A DNA stretch of 23,598 bases from a virus (taxonomy: Duplodnaviria; Heunggongvirae; Uroviricota; Caudoviricetes): the IMG/VR virus record IMGVR_UViG_3300023312_000045. One strand, 5' to 3'. The translations under genes were made by a program, and so were the position numbers. How positions within the stretch are numbered: the stretch's first letter is position 1; the number at the start of each line of letters is the position of its first letter. Shown here one piece after another: positions 502 through 23,598 of this stretch. The notes under the pieces are model-generated. The model was not told where the DNA came from and ran no database searches. It saw nothing but the letters and a program-made list of their open reading frames with translations.

Positions 502-516
502 TTACCACAACGGTAA
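502..516. promoter_or_regulatory. TTACC-N5-GGTAA inverted-repeat site E, upstream of terS, embedded in tandem direct repeat ACTATTACCAC
   Basis: tTTACCacaacGGTAA read at 502-516; a second degenerate copy TTACCacggtGGTTA follows at 520-534; terS ATG at 534. Confidence 0.5.
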
Positions 517-3265: not shown

Positions 3266-3342
3266 TGGCGTGGCATGCAGGATTCGAACCTGCGACCAAC
3301 CGCTTAGAAGGCGGTTGCTCTGTCCAACTGAGCTAATGCCAC
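3266..3342 (-). tRNA. tRNA-Arg (anticodon UCU), phage-encoded argU-like
   Basis: Reverse complement folds as a canonical cloverleaf: acceptor GTGGCAT/ATGCCAC, D-stem GCTC/GAGC, anticodon stem ACCGC/GCGGT with loop CTTCTAA (anticodon TCT), T-stem GCAGG/CCTGC with TTCGAAT loop, discriminator G and encoded CCA. Confidence 0.88.
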
Positions 3343-3664: not shown

Positions 3665-3679
3665 TTACCTGAAAGGTAA
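3665..3679. promoter_or_regulatory. TTACC-N5-GGTAA site A, upstream of the portal operon; followed by TAATTA -10-like hexamer
   Basis: TTACCtgaaaGGTAA read at 3665-3679; identical 17-mer TTACCTGAAAGGTAATA also present at site B. Confidence 0.55.
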
Positions 3680-21232: not shown

Positions 21233-21247
21233 TTACCTTTGGGGTAA
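21233..21247. promoter_or_regulatory. TTACC-N5-GGTAA site D, 27 bp upstream of the 62-aa gene start
   Basis: TTACCtttggGGTAA read at 21233-21247. Confidence 0.5.
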
Positions 21248-21318: not shown

Positions 21319-21975
21319 TCAGAAGAACCCTGCCTTGTCGTTGATGTACTCCGCGTGGGTCTGGATATCACGCAGGCATTTGCTCACACCGACGATGTAG
21401 CAGAACATGGTGGTCAGTTCCGCCGCCGCGCCCGATACATCGTGCCCGTCTTCCTGTAACTGGTTCAGCAGATTCATCAGCAGTGAGTTCTCCGTCAGGC
21501 CGAGAACACCAGACGGCGAATGAATCAGGCTGCGGTAGCCGGGCTTCAGTGGGGCGCTGTATTCTTTTTTGTCTTCCAGCTTGATCGCCTCCATTATGGC
21601 GGGCATGAAGCCTGACAAGACCTTCTCCACTTTTGTTTCTTGTTGTCTTAAACGTTTCTCGCATTCAATGAAGTAGCGTCGCACCTGGCGACCTTTTTCG
21701 TTACGCTCGACCATCGCCAGCTCTTTGGCTGTATCAAGGGTGAGGTGGTACTCTTTGCGGTTGTGGCCGCCTCTACCAGATGTTTGCTTTCCCAAATTGG
21801 AAAGCAAAATATAGTCTTGATTTTCAATGAATTCGTATTCTGATATGCGATTTGTAATCCATGCTGCAAACACCTTTTTAACACCTAAAAAAGCGTGCAG
21901 ATCGCGGGCATTACAAAGTAGGGCTGTTTCGTTAGATATAGTGCCGTTGAATACGGGGATGAGTTGAGCGTTCAT
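21319..21975 (-). CDS. Phage antirepressor, AntA-type N-terminal domain plus KilAC/ANT-like C-terminal domain
   Basis: N-terminal region ([29 protein letters not shown]...[33 protein letters not shown]) matches the AntA antirepressor domain as recalled; C-terminal 70 aa are paralogous to the 90-aa protein at 22293..22565. Confidence 0.75.
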
Positions 21976-22004
21976 GATGGCGTCTCCACTTAGCGAATTA
22001 CATC

Positions 22005-22052
22005 ACCACCGCTGAGACCAATCAGATGGTGGTGAACTGAACGGAGTTGGTC
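22005..22052 (-). other. Pseudoknot-capable structured element in the antirepressor leader
   Basis: Interleaved complementary hexamers: ACCACC (22005-22010) with GGTGGT (22028-22033), and GACCAA (22016-22021) with TTGGTC (22047-22052). Confidence 0.3.
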
Positions 22053-22133
22053 TTACCGGCCTAAGTGGTACCGGCGTCCTTTCGGACCCCCATTCAGCCC
22101 ACCATAATTCTGGCATGACTGTGCTATACGCAT

Positions 22134-22156
22134 AAAAAAACCACGTCTGGCGTGGT
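22134..22156 (-). terminator. Rho-independent terminator between the two antirepressor-family genes
   Basis: Minus-strand ACCACG-CCAGA-CGUGGU followed by UUUUUUU. Confidence 0.7.
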
Positions 22157-22167
22157 ATGCGCCACTT

Positions 22168-22220
22168 AGTAATCCGGGAGACCAATCCCGGCACTGGATT
22201 TTGCCAGTGCCCGATTACTA
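22168..22220 (-). other. Structured RNA element (two hairpins enclosed by a 7-bp outer stem) upstream of the terminator; candidate 3'UTR-derived or regulatory RNA
   Basis: AGTAATC...GATTACT outer stem enclosing CCGGGA-GACCAA-TCCCGG and CACTGG-ATTTTG-CCAGTG hairpins, read directly. Confidence 0.3.
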
Positions 22221-22246
22221 TGGCACAAGAGGAGTTCGATGTAAAT

Positions 22247-22261
22247 TTACCGCAAAGGTAA
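22247..22261. promoter_or_regulatory. TTACC-N5-GGTAA site C, downstream of the 90-aa gene
   Basis: TTACCgcaaaGGTAA read at 22247-22261. Confidence 0.5.
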
Positions 22262-22292
22262 TAATAAACACTCCACTTGGTAATTGCAAACC

Positions 22293-22565
22293 TTATCTGG
22301 TTTGCTTTCGTAATTGTTCGGCACAATAGTCGAGATGTGTTTGCAGATCCTGCATAGACATCTGTGAGCTGGTGACGTAGTTAATCAGTGCAGTCAGTTC
22401 GGCAAGTGGGCCATCGACATTAAATCCATCCTTATCGAGATCCCGGAGTAATTTCATCAAGTGCGATCCCTCCACCAGTGACCTGACGCCTCCCGGCGTG
22501 TGAATCCTTTCGGTAAATCCGTCTTCCAGTGGATAGTGATACTGCTGCATCTTAATCTTCTCCAT
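22293..22565 (-). CDS. Small antirepressor-family protein (stand-alone KilAC/ANT-like domain), LexA-controlled
   Basis: 90 aa; RSLVEGSHLMKLLRDLDKDGFNVDGPLAELTALINYV aligns with [47 protein letters not shown] of the 218-aa antirepressor; a LexA box lies 5 bp upstream of the start. Confidence 0.7.
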   Translation of the reverse strand: MEKIKMQQYHYPLEDGFTERIHTPGGVRSLVEGSHLMKLLRDLDKDGFNVDGPLAELTALINYVTSSQMSMQDLQTHLDYCAEQLRKQTR

Positions 22566-22570
22566 GCAAT

Positions 22571-22590
22571 AACTGTATATTTATACAGTA
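22571..22590. promoter_or_regulatory. LexA (SOS) box AACTGTATATTTATACAGTA
   Basis: CTGT-N8-ACAG with AT-rich spacer, 18 of 20 matches to the TACTGTATATATATACAGTA consensus; in the divergent region between the 90-aa gene and the tailspike gene. Confidence 0.75.
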
Positions 22591-22620: not shown

Positions 22621-22648
22621 TTGCAAATTACCTGAAAGGTAATATCTA
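22621..22648 (+). promoter_or_regulatory. Candidate sigma70 promoter for tailspike: -35 TTGCAA, 16-bp spacer, -10 TATCTA, with TTACC-N5-GGTAA site B (22628-22642) inside the spacer
   Basis: Hexamers and spacing read directly; operator-in-spacer geometry is typical of repressible promoters. Confidence 0.45.
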
Positions 22649-22746: not shown

Positions 22747-23598
22747 ATGACGGTCTCAACCGAAGTTGACCACAACGAATACACAGGTAACGGCGTTACG
22801 ACATCGTTTCCGTATACTTTTCGAATTTTCAGAAAATCAGACCTGGTTGTTCAGGTGTCTGACCTGAACGGAAACGTAACAGAATTGGTTCTGGATACCG
22901 GTTATACGGTAACTGGGGCGGGCACTTATAGTGGCGGTTCTGTGGTTCTTCCGTCTCCGCTTGCTACTGGATGGCGAATTACGATAGATCGTGTGCTTGA
23001 TGTAGTGCAGGAGACAGACCTTCGCAATCAGGGAAAATTTTTCCCAGAAGTGCATGAAGATGCCTTTGACTACCTGACGATGCTGATCCAGCAATGTTTT
23101 GGGTGGTTCAGACGTGCATTGATGAAACCATCTTTGCTTGCAAAATATTACGATGCAAAGCAAAACAAAATTTCTAACCTTGCAGATCCATCATTTGAGC
23201 AGGACGCTGTAAATAATCGCTCAATGCGTAATTATGTCGATGCTGCAATCGCCGGGGTTGTTGGTGGTTTTGGTTGGTTTATTCAGTATGGTTCTGGGGC
23301 TGTGTACCGAACGTTCCAGGATAAAATGCGTGATGCTATTAGCCCCAAAGATTTTGGAGCTGTTGGTGATGGTATAAATGACGATTCCACTGCAATAAGC
23401 GCGTGCCTTGAAGCCTCATCTCCAGGTTATAAAATTGACGGATTAGGGCTTACTTTTAAAGTATCAACTCTTCCGGATGTCAGTCGATTTAAAAATGCTC
23501 GTTTTTTATTTGAGAGAATACCGGGCCAGCCTCTTTTTTATGCTTCTGAAGATTTTATCCAGGGAGAGTTATTTAAAATTACAGATACACCGTGGTAC
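22747..23598 (+). CDS. Tailspike/tail fibre protein, 5' partial (runs off window end): T7 gp17-like N-terminal adaptor domain followed by the start of a pectate-lyase-type beta-helix
   Basis: Open frame from ATG 22747 to the window end (284 codons, translated by hand; absent from the ORF track because it has no stop). N-terminus GNGVTTSFPYTFRIFRKSDLVVQV parallels T7 gp17 DGSNRDFNIPFEYLARKFVVV as recalled; FGAVGDGINDDSTAI is the hallmark start of beta-helix depolymerase domains. Confidence 0.75.
   Translation, partial: MTVSTEVDHNEYTGNGVTTSFPYTFRIFRKSDLVVQVSDLNGNVTELVLDTGYTVTGAGTYSGGSVVLPSPLATGWRITIDRVLDVVQETDLRNQGKFFPEVHEDAFDYLTMLIQQCFGWFRRALMKPSLLAKYYDAKQNKISNLADPSFEQDAVNNRSMRNYVDAAIAGVVGGFGWFIQYGSGAVYRTFQDKMRDAISPKDFGAVGDGINDDSTAISACLEASSPGYKIDGLGLTFKVSTLPDVSRFKNARFLFERIPGQPLFYASEDFIQGELFKITDTPWY

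What the first reader, a model, noticed from the sequence alone, without database searches (positions are those of the whole stretch)
21976..22292. Densely structured non-coding region between the two antirepressor genes (pseudoknot-capable leader, nested hairpins, repeated 10-mer, terminator)
Within about 320 bp of apparently non-coding DNA there is an intrinsic terminator (22134-22156, minus strand), a three-element structure (outer stem AGTAATC/GATTACT enclosing two 6-bp hairpins, 22168-22220), interleaved complementary hexamers able to form an H-type pseudoknot about 30-75 nt upstream of the antirepressor start (22005-22052), and a 10-mer GAGACCAATC present twice (22014-22023 and 22178-22187). 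Antirepressor expression in P22 is controlled post-transcriptionally by the antisense sar RNA; this region could encode an analogous antisense or sRNA, a conditional terminator, or a translational operator. The only ORF here (22003..22326, minus) is Trp/Pro-rich and spans the terminator, so it is probably not coding.
Basis: seen in the sequence. Interest (0 to 1): 0.5.

Follow-up and report, generated by a model that had tools for sequence, protein, structure and literature searches.

The report
IsrK and C4 RNAs controlling antirepressor
The "structured non-coding region" is an unannotated copy of a well-known phage RNA switch: a C4 antisense RNA that blocks the antirepressor's ribosome-binding site, preceded by an IsrK small RNA that carries decoy copies of the C4 target. 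It is real and functional-looking, but ordinary.

Summary
All RNAs lie on the minus strand, the same strand as the antirepressor gene.

**What is there**
- They also find a full-length C4 antisense RNA (22109..22025, 61.2 bits).
- The repeated 10-mer is the a1/a2 target pair of C4.
The b2 copy overlaps the ant Shine-Dalgarno sequence.
- C4 carries the complements a' (AGACCAA) and b' (CCACUUAG).

**Support from related loci**
- In 50 of 50 distinct related modules, a'/a1/a2 and b'/b1/b2 change together (8 a-alleles, 19 b-loops).
- The layout matches phage P1 immI almost base for base, and also matches Gifsy-1 isrK.

- The "pseudoknot" is a':a2 pairing plus an alternative hairpin (UCACCACC/GGUGGUGA) that competes with the C4 closing stem.
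- The outer stem is limited to one clade and overlaps the IsrK promoter.
- The 107-aa ORF is not conserved.

**Most likely mechanism**
C4 represses ant translation, and IsrK titrates C4.

**Verdict**
This is a known system, unannotated here. The P22 sar analogy is wrong in detail. Interest is low, apart from possible SOS and repressor inputs specific to epsilon15-like phages.

The parts
22134..22210 (-). IsrK-type small RNA (77 nt). Hairpin 1 is 22210-22191 with the invariant loop GCAAAAUC. Hairpin 2 is 22190-22175. A linker follows, then an intrinsic terminator (22156-22140 plus U-run to 22134). It carries the a1 and b1 decoy sites.
   Evidence: Rfam RF01394 isrK: 67.7 bits (gathering score 50), full length 1-77, E = 9e-13. 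Covariation in both hairpins. Terminator scan. Fold z = -2.91. The 5' half also matches RF03163 c4-a1b1 at 39.9 bits, below its gathering score of 46.7.
22179..22185 (-). a1 site UUGGUCU, in the loop and 3' arm of IsrK hairpin 2.
   Evidence: In 50/50 distinct modules a1 is 7-bp Watson-Crick complementary to that module's own a'. The best non-own (different-allele) pairing is 6 bp, mean 3.7.
22162..22169 (-). b1 site CUAAGUGG in the IsrK linker, complementary to the C4 b' loop.
   Evidence: own b1:b' 7-9 bp in all 50 modules; non-own mean 4.5.
22217..22245 (-). Promoter of IsrK. -35 TTTACA (22245-22240), 17-bp spacer, extended -10 TGcCATAGT (22225-22217). The predicted start is near G22210, the first base of the Rfam isrK model.
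   Evidence: Promoter scan. In the 51-module alignment the -11 A is invariant, and the -7 T, the -10/-9 T and A, and the G of the extended TG are conserved in 90% or more. The position matches P1 promoter P1c4/P51b relative to a1. The start site itself is inferred.
22247..22261 (.). 15-bp palindrome TTACC-N5-GGTAA abutting the IsrK -35 and a second, upstream -10-like TATTAT (22266-22261; -35 TTGCAA at 22289-22284). Probable operator for a phage DNA-binding regulator; a possible tandem upstream promoter.
   Evidence: Five copies in the window against 0 expected. Conserved at this position, with a variable spacer, in all nine epsilon15-like loci even where the upstream sequence diverges. Absent from the Stx, APSE, Gifsy-1 and P1 versions. 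Function is inferred.
22025..22109 (-). C4 antisense RNA. By homology with the annotated 77-nt P1 C4, the mature RNA is predicted as 22103..22028. It has a 17-bp closing stem (22104-22088 / 22046-22030), hairpin 1 (22087-22076), and hairpin 2 (22075-22055) whose loop holds b'. A single-stranded stretch holds a'.
   Evidence: Rfam RF01695: 61.2 bits (gathering score 45), full length 1-87. Closing stem 99.5% paired with 5 compensatory pairs. Fold -40.7 kcal/mol, z = -5.49. P1 annotation for comparison.
22061..22068 (-). b' = CCACUUAG, in the loop of C4 hairpin 2.
22047..22053 (-). a' = AGACCAA, in the single-stranded 3' internal region of C4.
22015..22021 (-). a2 target UUGGUCU in the ant leader, 7 nt after the predicted C4 3' end.
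   Evidence: Its position matches P1 a2, which lies 4 nt after C4.
21986..21993 (-). b2 target CUAAGUGG, overlapping the ant Shine-Dalgarno GGAG (21987-21984). Ten nt separate it from the ATG at 21975.
   Evidence: P1 b2 sits at the same 10-nt distance from the icd start.
22003..22035 (-). Alternative hairpin UCACCACC (the 3' strand of the C4 closing stem) / GGUGGUGA, displaying a2 in its loop. It is mutually exclusive with the folded C4.
   Evidence: In a sample anchored on IsrK only (not on this hairpin), most modules keep it. Variant pairs are compensatory: UUCGCCACC/GGUGGCGA, UCCGCCACC/GGUGGCGG, CCUGCCACC/GGUGGCAG. P1 has CCUGCCACC/GGUAGCAGG.
21319..21975 (-). Regulated gene: a 218-aa antirepressor. 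It has an N-terminal AntA domain, and its C-terminal ~83 aa are homologous to the small Ant encoded upstream.
   Evidence: Pfam PF08346 AntA, 4.2e-26. PHROG 377 anti-repressor Ant, 2.7e-66. 42% identity to the upstream ORF.
22293..22590 (-). Upstream neighbour, not part of the RNA module but transcribed into it. It is the small Ant gene (85 aa from ATG 22550; the ORF is open from 22565) with a LexA box TACTGTATAAATATACAGTT (22590-22571). No terminator lies between its stop codon and the IsrK terminator.
   Evidence: Homolog of the annotated SPC32H ant gene SPC32H_020. LexA box conserved in related phages. Terminator scan.

Best explanation
The region is a P1 immI-type RNA immunity module: IsrK/a1b1, then C4, then a2b2/RBS, then ant.

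**Transcription.** An extended -10 promoter starts transcription near 22210.
- Most transcripts stop at the terminator and give the 77-nt IsrK sRNA.
- Some read through and give a precursor containing C4 and the ant mRNA.

**Repression.** C4 is probably cut out of the precursor, as in P1, where RNase P makes the 5' end. It folds into a long closing stem that exposes two short sequences, b' (CCACUUAG, hairpin loop) and a' (AGACCAA, single strand).
- These pair with a2 (UUGGUCU) and b2 (CUAAGUGG) in the ant leader.
- b2 overlaps the Shine-Dalgarno sequence, so C4 blocks ribosome binding and keeps the antirepressor off in the lysogen.

**Relief.** IsrK carries exact copies of both targets (a1, b1), plus a central CCGG that makes its duplex with C4 nearly continuous.
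- It therefore acts as a decoy that titrates C4.
- In the read-through RNA, the same sequences pair with C4 in cis.
- Either way the ant RBS is freed when IsrK is in excess.

**Specificity.** The a/b sequences are the specificity (immunity) determinants and differ between phages.

**What is shown here**
- The identity of both RNAs.
- Their structures.
- The three-way complementarity and its covariation.
- The overlap of b2 with the RBS.
- The P1-like geometry.

**What is inferred from P1/P7 and Gifsy-1 work**
- Processing of C4.
- Action in trans.
- The direction of regulation.
- Terminator read-through.
For: **Curated family matches**
- Rfam gathering-threshold, full-length hits to isrK and C4 in tandem.

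**The tandem arrangement recurs**
- The same tandem, 18-25 nt apart and followed by an antirepressor gene, is present in 14 of 14 fetched phage loci from E. coli, Klebsiella, Enterobacter, Hafnia, Yersinia, Hamiltonella APSE-2 and Stx phages.
- This holds although the downstream antirepressor differs between loci, e.g. AntA in the window and Bro-N in phiV10.
- Gifsy-1 also shows it.

**Three-way covariation, tested without an alignment**
- In 50/50 distinct modules, a' pairs 7 bp with both a1 and a2, and b' pairs 7-11 bp with b1 and b2.
- This spans 8 a-alleles and 19 b-loop sequences.
- Non-own combinations average 3.6-5.6 bp.

**Intramolecular helices covary**
- IsrK hairpin 1 is 93.6% paired with 6 of 7 pairs compensatory.
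- The C4 closing stem is 99.5% paired with 5 compensatory pairs.
- No shuffle out of 500 reaches the observed covariation score.

**Geometry equals annotated P1**

| Feature | Window | P1 |
|---|---|---|
| a1, from predicted start | +26..+32 | +26..+32 |
| b1, from predicted start | +42 | +40 |
| a2, nt after C4 | 7 | 4 |
| Spacer between b2 and the start codon | 10 nt | 10 nt |

**Thermodynamics**
- C4 folds at -40.7 kcal/mol, z = -5.49.
- Segment duplex energies: C4 with IsrK -30.1, C4 with target -26.0 kcal/mol.
- The read-through leader has two near-isoenergetic folds, -100.3 vs -97.9 kcal/mol.
- This mirrors structures A and B, which were shown experimentally for Gifsy-1 (PMC4825925).

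**Literature**
- Weinberg 2010 (PMC2864571, Additional file 1) cites the proposal that a1/b1 compete with a2/b2 for C4.
- Hershko-Shalev 2016 (PMC4825925) showed that trans IsrK raises anrP translation more than 100-fold, with compensatory mutations.
Against: - Nothing here shows transcripts, processing or regulation in this phage.
- The promoter start site is inferred.
- RF03163 (c4-a1b1) scores below its gathering cut-off in the window (39.9 vs 46.7).
- The window lacks the small upstream ORF (icd in P1, orf45 in Gifsy-1) through which translational coupling to ant was demonstrated. The equivalent frame closes after 3 codons (AUG GUG GGC UGA). The P1 and Gifsy-1 details therefore cannot be transferred unchanged.
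- Simple cofolding does not predict the loop-loop complexes (ddG 0), because kissing interactions lie outside the model. Relative affinities therefore rest on segment duplex energies only.
- The Gifsy-1 authors interpret the system mainly as a cis structure opened by IsrK, rather than as repression by a processed trans-acting C4.
Confidence: 0.85

Rival explanations
1. Purely cis-acting leader switch (the Gifsy-1 reading). The read-through transcript folds so that the IsrK a1/b1 region pairs with the C4 region in cis, giving an inactive conformer. Free IsrK invades in trans and flips the leader to a translatable conformer. No processed, trans-acting C4 repressor is needed.
For: - The MFE of the 251-nt leader pairs a1:a', CCGG:CCGG and b1:b' in cis and forms the UCACCACC/GGUGGUGA hairpin (-100.3 kcal/mol).
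- That is only 2.4 kcal/mol below the fold with C4 formed.
- This reproduces structures A and B, which were verified by native gels and compensatory mutations in Gifsy-1 (PMC4825925).
- The alternative hairpin shows some compensatory changes.
Against: - In the A-like fold of the window, the ant SD and b2 are not sequestered. That fold alone therefore does not explain repression here.
- The window has no orf45 equivalent to couple translation.
- The a2/b2 copies covary with a'/b' in all 50 modules. That is needed only if C4 contacts the ant leader.
- In P1, c4 is a genetically trans-acting repressor (annotated; Citron and Schuster 1990, from my own knowledge).
- A stable processed species downstream of IsrK (STnc1160) exists in Salmonella.
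Confidence: 0.3
2. A P22 sar-like cis-antisense RNA, or another sRNA transcribed from the plus strand across the ant leader.
For: - -10-like elements exist on both strands around the palindrome at 22247-22266.
- P22 does control ant with sar (from my own knowledge).
Against: - No Rfam sar match at gathering threshold or at E <= 1.
- Both curated matches are on the minus strand.
- Three pairs in the C4 stems are invariant or near-invariant G.U (GU in 51/51, 50/51 and 49/51 sequences). These would be C.A mismatches on the plus strand.
- The terminator U-run is on the minus strand only.
Confidence: 0.03
3. The region is translated, either as the 107-aa ORF (22326..22003) or as an orf45-like peptide starting at the AUGGUGGG of C4.
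For: - An open frame exists in the window.
- orf45 translation was detected in Gifsy-1 with a tag (PMC4825925).
Against: - No Pfam hit for the 107-aa ORF.
- Its frame is open in only 18 of 51 modules, and no frame is conserved.
- The orf45-equivalent frame stops after 3 codons in the window, and a second AUG gives 10 codons ending in the b' UAG.
- Substitution patterns follow the RNA helices.
Confidence: 0.03
4. P4 CI-like transcription control. C4 pairing with a1/b1 and a2/b2 mainly governs termination (at the IsrK terminator, or Rho-dependent termination in the untranslated ant leader) rather than ribosome binding.
For: - P4 CI, seqA and seqC are cited as structural relatives of IsrK.
- In P1, translational repression of icd leads to premature termination of ant transcription (Biere et al. 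1992, from my own knowledge).
- Trans IsrK raised a Gifsy-1 transcriptional fusion 8-fold.
- Weinberg 2010 notes terminator-like hairpins overlapping the C4 3' strand in some loci.
Against: - In the window the alternative hairpin is followed by AUGUAAUUCG, not a U-run.
- b2 overlaps the SD in the window and in all modules inspected.
- The translational effect in Gifsy-1 was far larger than the transcriptional one (139-fold vs 8-fold).
- This is best seen as a secondary consequence, not an alternative.
Confidence: 0.15
5. A dedicated H-type pseudoknot in the ant leader acting as a cis translational operator.
For: - The four segments are interleaved and complementary.
- Both pairings are conserved.
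Against: - Its first strand (a') and second strand (UCACCACC) both belong to C4.
- UCACCACC is the 3' strand of a 17-bp stem that is 99.5% paired with covariation.
- That stem is far more stable: -40.7 kcal/mol for C4 against -16.5 kcal/mol (z = -1.94) for the 51-nt segment.
- The same a' also matches a1 in IsrK, which a local pseudoknot would not require.
- The element lies 28 nt or more upstream of the SD.
Confidence: 0.05

Closest known systems
Phage P1/P7 immI operon (a1b1 leader, c4 antisense RNA, icd, ant1/2). Rfam RF01695 C4 and RF03163 c4-a1b1.
   Same: - The order of elements matches: promoter, two hairpins with a1 in the second loop, b1, a terminator-like hairpin, C4, a2, b2 over an RBS, antirepressor.
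- The spacing is nearly identical: a1 at +26 in both, and a 10-nt spacer between b2 and the start codon in both.
- C4 has the same three-helix fold.
- The a/b sequences act as variable specificity determinants.
- An alternative hairpin involves the C4 3' strand.
- An operator may sit next to tandem promoters, as with P1 Op51/P51a and P51b. This point is inferred for the window.
   Different: - There is no icd-like ORF. Here b2 covers the SD of ant itself.
- The antirepressor is unrelated in family to the P1 one: an AntA N-terminal domain plus a small-Ant-like C-terminal domain.
- The upstream part is a strong IsrK match with a good intrinsic terminator (67.7 bits). The P1 leader scores only 35 bits on isrK.
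- The host element is a small epsilon15-like podovirus rather than a plasmid prophage.
Salmonella Gifsy-1 isrK-orf45(STnc1160)-anrP-isrJ locus (Hershko-Shalev et al. 2016, PMC4825925). Rfam RF01394 isrK.
   Same: - IsrK is followed by a C4-family RNA: 69 bits in Gifsy-1.
- An antirepressor follows, whose SD is overlapped by b2.
- The leader has two near-isoenergetic conformers (compared).
- The IsrK terminator is read through.
- The expected outcome is the same: excess IsrK switches the antirepressor on.
   Different: - orf45 is closed in the window.
- No isrJ match was found in the window.
- The genomic context differs. Gifsy-1 has the module downstream of the Q antiterminator in a lambdoid nin/Q region. 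The window has it between the tailspike/small-ant genes and the injection genes.
- The window adds a LexA-controlled gene reading into IsrK, and a palindromic operator at the IsrK promoter.
Satellite phage P4 CI RNA with seqA/seqC
   Same: A processed small RNA from a leader transcript pairs with complementary sites both upstream and downstream of itself in the same transcript (as described).
   Different: P4 CI acts by causing premature transcription termination of replication genes, not by occluding an antirepressor RBS. No sequence-family match was obtained here.
P22 immI (mnt-arc-ant with sar antisense RNA)
   Same: Antirepressor expression is limited post-transcriptionally by a small phage RNA. 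The locus sits next to the tailspike gene in a podovirus.
   Different: sar is transcribed from the opposite strand and is fully complementary to the ant RBS region. Here the RNAs are co-directional with ant and use two short complementarities. No sar match was found, and no Arc or Mnt homologs were seen next to the region.
SPC32H / epsilon15-type LexA-controlled small Ant (Kim and Ryu 2013, cited in PMC7380047)
   Same: The upstream 85-aa gene is homologous to SPC32H ant, and both have a LexA box and a TTACC-N5-GGTAA palindrome in the promoter region.
   Different: SPC32H, epsilon15 and SPN1S lack the IsrK-C4-AntA module: homology to the window stops at the small-ant stop codon. The window therefore carries two antirepression systems in tandem.

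Membership tests
Rfam RF01695 C4 antisense RNA (P1/P7 c4 type) | Covariance-model score at or above the curated gathering threshold, over the full length | tested here: met
   61.2 bits against a gathering score of 45, model positions 1-87 of 87, E = 7.8e-10.
Rfam RF01695 C4 antisense RNA (P1/P7 c4 type) | A long closing stem enclosing two hairpins, supported by covariation | tested here: met
   The closing stem is 99.5% paired and 5 of 17 pairs have double changes. Hairpin 2 is 99.6% paired. Hairpin 1 covaries but is partly misaligned (70.6%). MFE -40.7 kcal/mol, z = -5.49.
Rfam RF01695 C4 antisense RNA (P1/P7 c4 type) | Exposed a' and b' are complementary to a2 and b2 downstream, with b2 over a ribosome-binding site | tested here: met
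   a' AGACCAA pairs with a2 UUGGUCU. b' CCACUUAG pairs with b2 CUAAGUGG, which overlaps GGAG with a 10-nt spacer before the ATG. The sites covary in 50/50 modules.
Rfam RF01695 C4 antisense RNA (P1/P7 c4 type) | An antirepressor gene downstream in the same orientation | tested here: met
   AntA domain 4.2e-26 and PHROG 377 anti-repressor Ant 2.7e-66.
Rfam RF01695 C4 antisense RNA (P1/P7 c4 type) | A small ORF (icd/orfX) between C4 and ant, whose translation is the direct target and is coupled to ant | tested here: not met
   ant starts 52 nt after the predicted C4 3' end with no intervening ORF. The orf45-like frame closes after 3 codons. This is a feature of P1 and Gifsy-1, not of the Rfam family. 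Many modules (Stx, APSE, Uetakevirus) also lack it.
Rfam RF01695 C4 antisense RNA (P1/P7 c4 type) | Processing from a precursor (RNase P at the 5' end) and repression in trans | not testable with these tools
   This needs RNA mapping and genetics. The predicted mature ends, 22103 and 22028, are by homology with the P1 annotation.
Rfam RF01394 isrK | Covariance-model score at or above the gathering threshold, over the full length (two 5' hairpins, linker, terminator) | tested here: met
   67.7 bits against a gathering score of 50, model positions 1-77 of 77. Both hairpins covary. Terminator found.
Rfam RF01394 isrK | Own promoter giving a discrete sRNA, with partial read-through into the antirepressor mRNA | tested here: inconclusive
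   An extended -10 promoter is conserved at the right distance. Transcripts and read-through cannot be observed with these tools.
Rfam RF01394 isrK | Complementarity of the middle of IsrK to the downstream region (helix b-I of Hershko-Shalev) | tested here: met
   a1, CCGG and b1 pair with a', CCGG and b': 19 bp over about 26 nt, duplex -30.1 kcal/mol. The pairing is present in the MFE of the full leader.
Rfam RF01394 isrK | Hfq binding | not testable with these tools
   No assay is available.
Rfam RF03163 c4-a1b1 | Score at or above the gathering threshold | tested here: not met
   39.9 bits against a gathering score of 46.7, although E = 1.6e-8 and all 53 model positions match. The same DNA passes the overlapping isrK model. 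P1, Gifsy-1 and Stx-phage copies pass RF03163.
P22 sar antisense RNA | An RNA transcribed antisense to the ant leader/RBS, with a family match | tested here: not met
   No match at gathering threshold or at E <= 1. The conserved structures are on the ant-sense strand, with G.U pairs.

The most novel reading that the evidence does not exclude
In epsilon15-like phages the IsrK/C4 switch may be wired to two extra inputs not described for P1 or Gifsy-1.

**(i) An SOS input.** The LexA-controlled small-ant gene has no terminator of its own, so SOS-induced transcripts would end at the IsrK terminator. They would then carry the a1/b1 decoy as a 3'UTR. In these transcripts it could be closed by the clade-specific 8-bp outer stem, which can only form in RNAs started upstream of the IsrK promoter. 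This would titrate C4 and switch on the second, larger antirepressor, giving a two-stage feed-forward induction.

**(ii) A repressor input.** The TTACC-N5-GGTAA palindrome at the IsrK promoter would put decoy production under the prophage repressor.
Probability: 0.25. Interest if true: 0.5.

Novelty: already known. Interest (0 to 1): 0.2.

Why it matters
The main value is for annotation.

**Annotation gap**
- The two RNA genes are not annotated in the identical phage record (phiv142-3) or in phiV10.
- Nothing is annotated under the matches in the 8 E. coli genome records listed; in all, 449 of 5426 complete E. coli genomes carry a close copy.
- As a result, a spurious 107-aa ORF can be called across them.

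**Link between two literatures**
- Gifsy-1 'orf45/STnc1160' is a C4-family RNA. The IsrK paper itself does not use the term 'C4 antisense'.
- IsrK is the a1b1 leader of P1.

**Biology**
- The a/b alleles (8 x 19 seen here, in reassorted combinations) predict which prophages cross-repress each other's antirepressors.
- If the SOS and repressor wiring proposed for epsilon15-like phages is real, it would be a compact example of a decoy RNA delivered as a 3'UTR. That remains untested.

Tried and rejected
**Outer stem AGUAAUC/GAUUACU as a family feature.**
- It is 69.7% paired in the 51-module alignment.
- A duplex test gives an own mean run of 5.47 bp against 4.78 for non-own pairs. Strong stems occur only in the epsilon15-like clade.
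- I kept it as a clade-specific, unexplained feature.

**Formal pair counting for the a/b sites.**
- MAFFT shifts the a2 and b columns by 1 nt or more, so I did not use the count of structure pairs on them.
- I used an alignment-free complement search with non-own controls instead.

**RNA cofolding of C4 with IsrK or with the target.**
- It returns the two monomer folds (ddG 0), because loop-loop kissing lies outside the model.
- I used segment duplex energies only.

**A cis pairing between the a2 3' half (GGUCUC) and the SD region (GGAGAC) in the free leader.**
- z = -1.74, and the pairing is absent in other alleles.
- I treated it as chance.

**Other rejected readings.**
- P22 sar.
- Coding potential of the 107-aa ORF and of an orf45-like frame.

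**Sampling bias.**
- The first IMG/VR sample was selected with the UCACCACC..GGUGGUGAU pattern, so it cannot test that hairpin.
- I drew a second sample anchored on IsrK only.
- In that second sample my strict regular expression found no C4 in 52 of 141 distinct sequences. I did not examine those further.

**Literature.**
- The SPC32H paper (PMC3807360) is not held in the library.
- Statements about it rest on a review and on my own knowledge.
Full report
**Setting.** The window is an epsilon15/phiV10-like podovirus genome or prophage (Uetakevirus).
- The 671 bases around the finding are 98.5% identical to phage phiv142-3, and the 250-nt leader is 100% identical.
- On the minus strand the order is:
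  - a LexA box (22590-22571);
  - an 85-aa gene (22550-22293);
  - the finding region;
  - a 218-aa antirepressor gene (21975-21319).
- The tailspike gene runs the other way from 22747.

**Checking the observation.**
- The exact 10-mer repeat is beyond chance: 0.02 copies expected and 0/100 shuffles reach two.
- With one mismatch allowed, the count alone is not significant.
CCACTTAG occurs three times within 190 nt, twice on one strand and once on the other.

**What it is.** A scan of the window against Rfam at curated thresholds gives two full-length matches inside the finding. Both are on the minus strand, the same strand as ant.
- isrK (RF01394): 22210..22134, 67.7 bits against a gathering score of 50.
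- C4 antisense RNA (RF01695): 22109..22025, 61.2 bits against a gathering score of 45.
- The two 6-7-bp hairpins are IsrK hairpins 1 and 2.
- A more permissive scan adds RF03163 'a1, b1 targets of C4 antisense RNA' over the IsrK 5' half (39.9 bits, below its 46.7 cut-off). It finds no sar.

**The repeats are the antisense system.**
- Read on the minus strand, the 10-mer contains UUGGUCU. One copy sits in the loop of IsrK hairpin 2 (a1, 22185-22179). The other sits 7 nt after C4 (a2, 22021-22015).
- C4 carries the complement AGACCAA in its single-stranded internal region (a', 22053-22047).
- CUAAGUGG occurs in the IsrK linker (b1, 22169-22162) and over the ant Shine-Dalgarno sequence (b2, 21993-21986; GGAG at 21987-21984; ATG at 21975).
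- The loop of C4 hairpin 2 carries CCACUUAG (b', 22068-22061).

**Related loci.**
- BLAST finds the 22210-22002 block in more than 250 phage records.
- In the epsilon15-like loci sequence similarity to the window ends about where the antirepressor gene begins. The downstream antirepressor also differs between loci: AntA in the window, Bro-N in phiV10.
- All 14 fetched loci contain isrK followed 18-25 nt later by C4.
- With two IMG/VR pattern scans I assembled 51 distinct modules.
- An alignment-free test gave these results for all 50 parsed modules:
  - a' pairs 7 bp (Watson-Crick) with both its own a1 and its own a2;
  - b' pairs 7-11 bp with its own b1 and b2;
  - there are 8 a-alleles and 19 b-loop sequences;
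  - pairings between different alleles average 3.6-5.6 bp;
  - no a-site non-own pairing reaches 7 bp.
- This three-way covariation is the strongest evidence that the complementarities are functional.
- Intramolecular helices also covary:
  - IsrK hairpin 1 is 93.6% paired, with 6 of 7 pairs carrying double changes;
  - hairpin 2 is 97.3% paired;
  - the C4 closing stem is 99.5% paired, with 5 compensatory pairs;
  - the whole-structure covariation score is 0.257 against 0.142 in shuffles, and 0/500 shuffles reach it.
- Invariant G.U pairs fix the transcribed strand as the minus strand.

**Comparison with P1.** The P1 record annotates promoters P2c4 and P1c4, operator Oc4, a1, b1, C4 (77 nt), a2, b2 and icd.

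| Feature | P1 | Window |
|---|---|---|
| a1, from predicted start | +26..+32 | +26..+32 |
| b1, from predicted start | +40 | +42 |
| a2, nt after C4 | 4 | 7 |
| Spacer between b2 and the start codon | 10 nt | 10 nt |

- The P1 leader also matches c4-a1b1 (51 bits) and, weakly, isrK (35 bits), including a terminator-like hairpin.

**Comparison with Gifsy-1.**
- The original IsrK locus has a C4-family RNA (69 bits) immediately after IsrK.
- It has the same a2, GGUGGUGAU and b2/SD layout before anrP.
- The 'orf45' start codon of Hershko-Shalev et al. is the AUG of the conserved AUGGUGGG at the C4 5' end.
- Their stable processed species STnc1160 lies in this interval and is probably the C4 homologue.
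- In the window that frame closes after three codons.

**The 'pseudoknot' and the 'three-element structure'.**
- The interleaved complements at 22003-22053 are two separate pairings.
  - The first is a':a2.
  - The second is UCACCACC:GGUGGUGA. UCACCACC is the 3' strand of the C4 closing stem, so this hairpin and folded C4 exclude each other.
- In an IsrK-anchored sample most modules keep the hairpin. The variants are compensatory: UUCGCCACC/GGUGGCGA, UCCGCCACC/GGUGGCGG and CCUGCCACC/GGUGGCAG. P1 has CCUGCCACC/GGUAGCAGG.
- Folding the whole 251-nt read-through leader gives an MFE of -100.3 kcal/mol. In it a1:a', a central CCGG:CCGG and b1:b' pair in cis, and this hairpin forms.
- Enforcing the C4 fold costs only 2.4 kcal/mol.
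- These are the counterparts of structures A and B demonstrated for Gifsy-1.
- The outer stem UAGUAAUC/GAUUACUA is strong in the window but is confined to the epsilon15-like clade. Its 5' arm overlaps the -10 box of the IsrK promoter (CATAGT, 22222-22217).
- It can therefore form only in transcripts that start further upstream.

**Promoter.**
- A -35 TTTACA / extended -10 TGcCATAGT promoter sits at the right distance.
- Its -11 A is invariant, and the -7 T, the -10/-9 T and A, and the G of the extended TG are conserved in 90% or more across the 51 modules.
- The start at G22210 is inferred.

**Mechanism.**
- The best-supported reading is the P1 immI logic.
  - C4, probably processed from the read-through transcript, occludes the ant RBS through a':a2 and b':b2.
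  - IsrK, which carries a1 and b1 and forms a more continuous duplex with C4 (-30.1 vs -26.0 kcal/mol), titrates C4 and relieves repression.
- Two sources agree with this:
  - the competition proposal cited by Weinberg 2010;
  - the more than 100-fold activation of anrP translation by trans IsrK, with compensatory mutations.
- Processing, action in trans and read-through are inferred, not shown here.
- The main rival is a purely cis switch. It does not explain why a2/b2 covary with C4, nor how ant would be silenced in the window, where the A-like fold leaves the SD open.

**Not coding.**
- The 107-aa ORF has no family hit.
- Its frame is open in only 18 of 51 modules.

**Novelty.**
- Both RNAs belong to curated families whose mechanism has been worked out in P1/P7 and Gifsy-1.
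- The tandem has already been noted in APSE phages.
- The instance is unannotated in phiv142-3 and phiV10, and none of the 8 E. coli genome records listed has an annotated feature under the match. In all, 449 of 5426 complete E. coli genomes carry a close copy, 78 records at 99% identity or more.
- I therefore rate it as already known, with low interest.
- The residue of possible novelty is the local wiring in epsilon15-like phages.
  - The upstream gene is a homolog of the SPC32H small Ant with a conserved LexA box.
  - It is 42% identical to the C-terminal domain of the large Ant.
  - It has no terminator before the IsrK terminator.
  - A TTACC-N5-GGTAA palindrome occurs five times in the window against none expected.
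  - One copy abuts the IsrK promoter in every epsilon15-like locus, and it is absent from the other lineages' modules.

Noticed in passing
window 502-516, 3665-3679, 21233-21247, 22247-22261, 22628-22642: The 15-bp palindrome TTACC-N5-GGTAA occurs five times (0 expected in shuffles). All copies lie in promoter-proximal or intergenic DNA: upstream of the terminase gene, upstream of the head genes, downstream of ant, at the IsrK promoter, and about 40 bp upstream of the small-ant LexA box. It is conserved at the last two positions in all epsilon15-like loci, including SPC32H, and is absent from the Stx, APSE, Gifsy-1 and P1 modules. It is probably the operator of a phage-encoded regulator.
   Followed up: partly
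window 22571-22590 and 22293-22565 (minus strand): A near-consensus LexA box (TACTGTATAAATATACAGTT) lies in front of an 85-aa gene homologous to the SPC32H antirepressor gene ant. The box is conserved in related phages. The protein is 42% identical to the C-terminal 83 aa of the 218-aa AntA-type antirepressor downstream, so the window carries two related antirepressors in tandem. Salmonella phages epsilon15, SPC32H and SPN1S have only the first.
   Followed up: partly
window 22261-22289 (minus strand): A second promoter-like site (TTGCAA, 17 bp, TATTAT) lies 44 bp upstream of the IsrK promoter, with its -10 abutting the palindrome. A -35/-10 pair at the same spacing appears in several diverged homologs. 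This resembles the P1 tandem P51a/P51b promoters with operator Op51. Transcripts from it would include the 5' arm of the clade-specific outer stem.
   Followed up: partly
L239 (Gifsy-1, NC_010392) 34131-34214, minus strand: The Gifsy-1 'orf45'/STnc1160 interval between isrK and anrP is a C4 antisense RNA by Rfam (69 bits). The orf45 AUG is the conserved AUGGUGGG at the C4 5' end. The IsrK paper does not use the term 'C4 antisense'.
   Followed up: yes
window 22271-22279 (minus strand): A b-site-like sequence, CAAGUGGAG (6-nt match to the C4 b' loop), lies 14 nt after the small-ant stop codon. It is conserved in the closest relatives. Its significance is unknown.
   Followed up: no
window 3269-3342 (minus strand): A phage-borne tRNA-Arg (anticodon TCT), 73.3 bits. 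Gifsy-1 also carries a tRNA-Arg near its isrK locus.
   Followed up: no
window 22747-23598 (plus strand): The tailspike N-terminus is followed by the 'N-terminal extension of bacteriophage endosialidase' domain (PF12218, 1.3e-32). This may point to a polysialic-acid (K1-type) capsule-specific tailspike. The gene runs off the window.
   Followed up: no
L014 2235-2318 (Stx2a phage Stx2_EH0505); L012 163-461 (Yersinia phage vB_YpM_41): Other Rfam sRNAs lie near IsrK/C4 modules in relatives: sRNA-Xcc1 (75.7 bits) downstream of the antirepressor in an Stx2a phage, and ryfA (134.6 bits) in the Yersinia phage.
   Followed up: no
IMG/VR loci L137-L238: In 52 of 141 distinct sequences that match the IsrK hairpin pattern, my strict pattern found no C4 within about 190 nt. 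They may hold divergent C4 RNAs or IsrK-like RNAs without C4.
   Followed up: no
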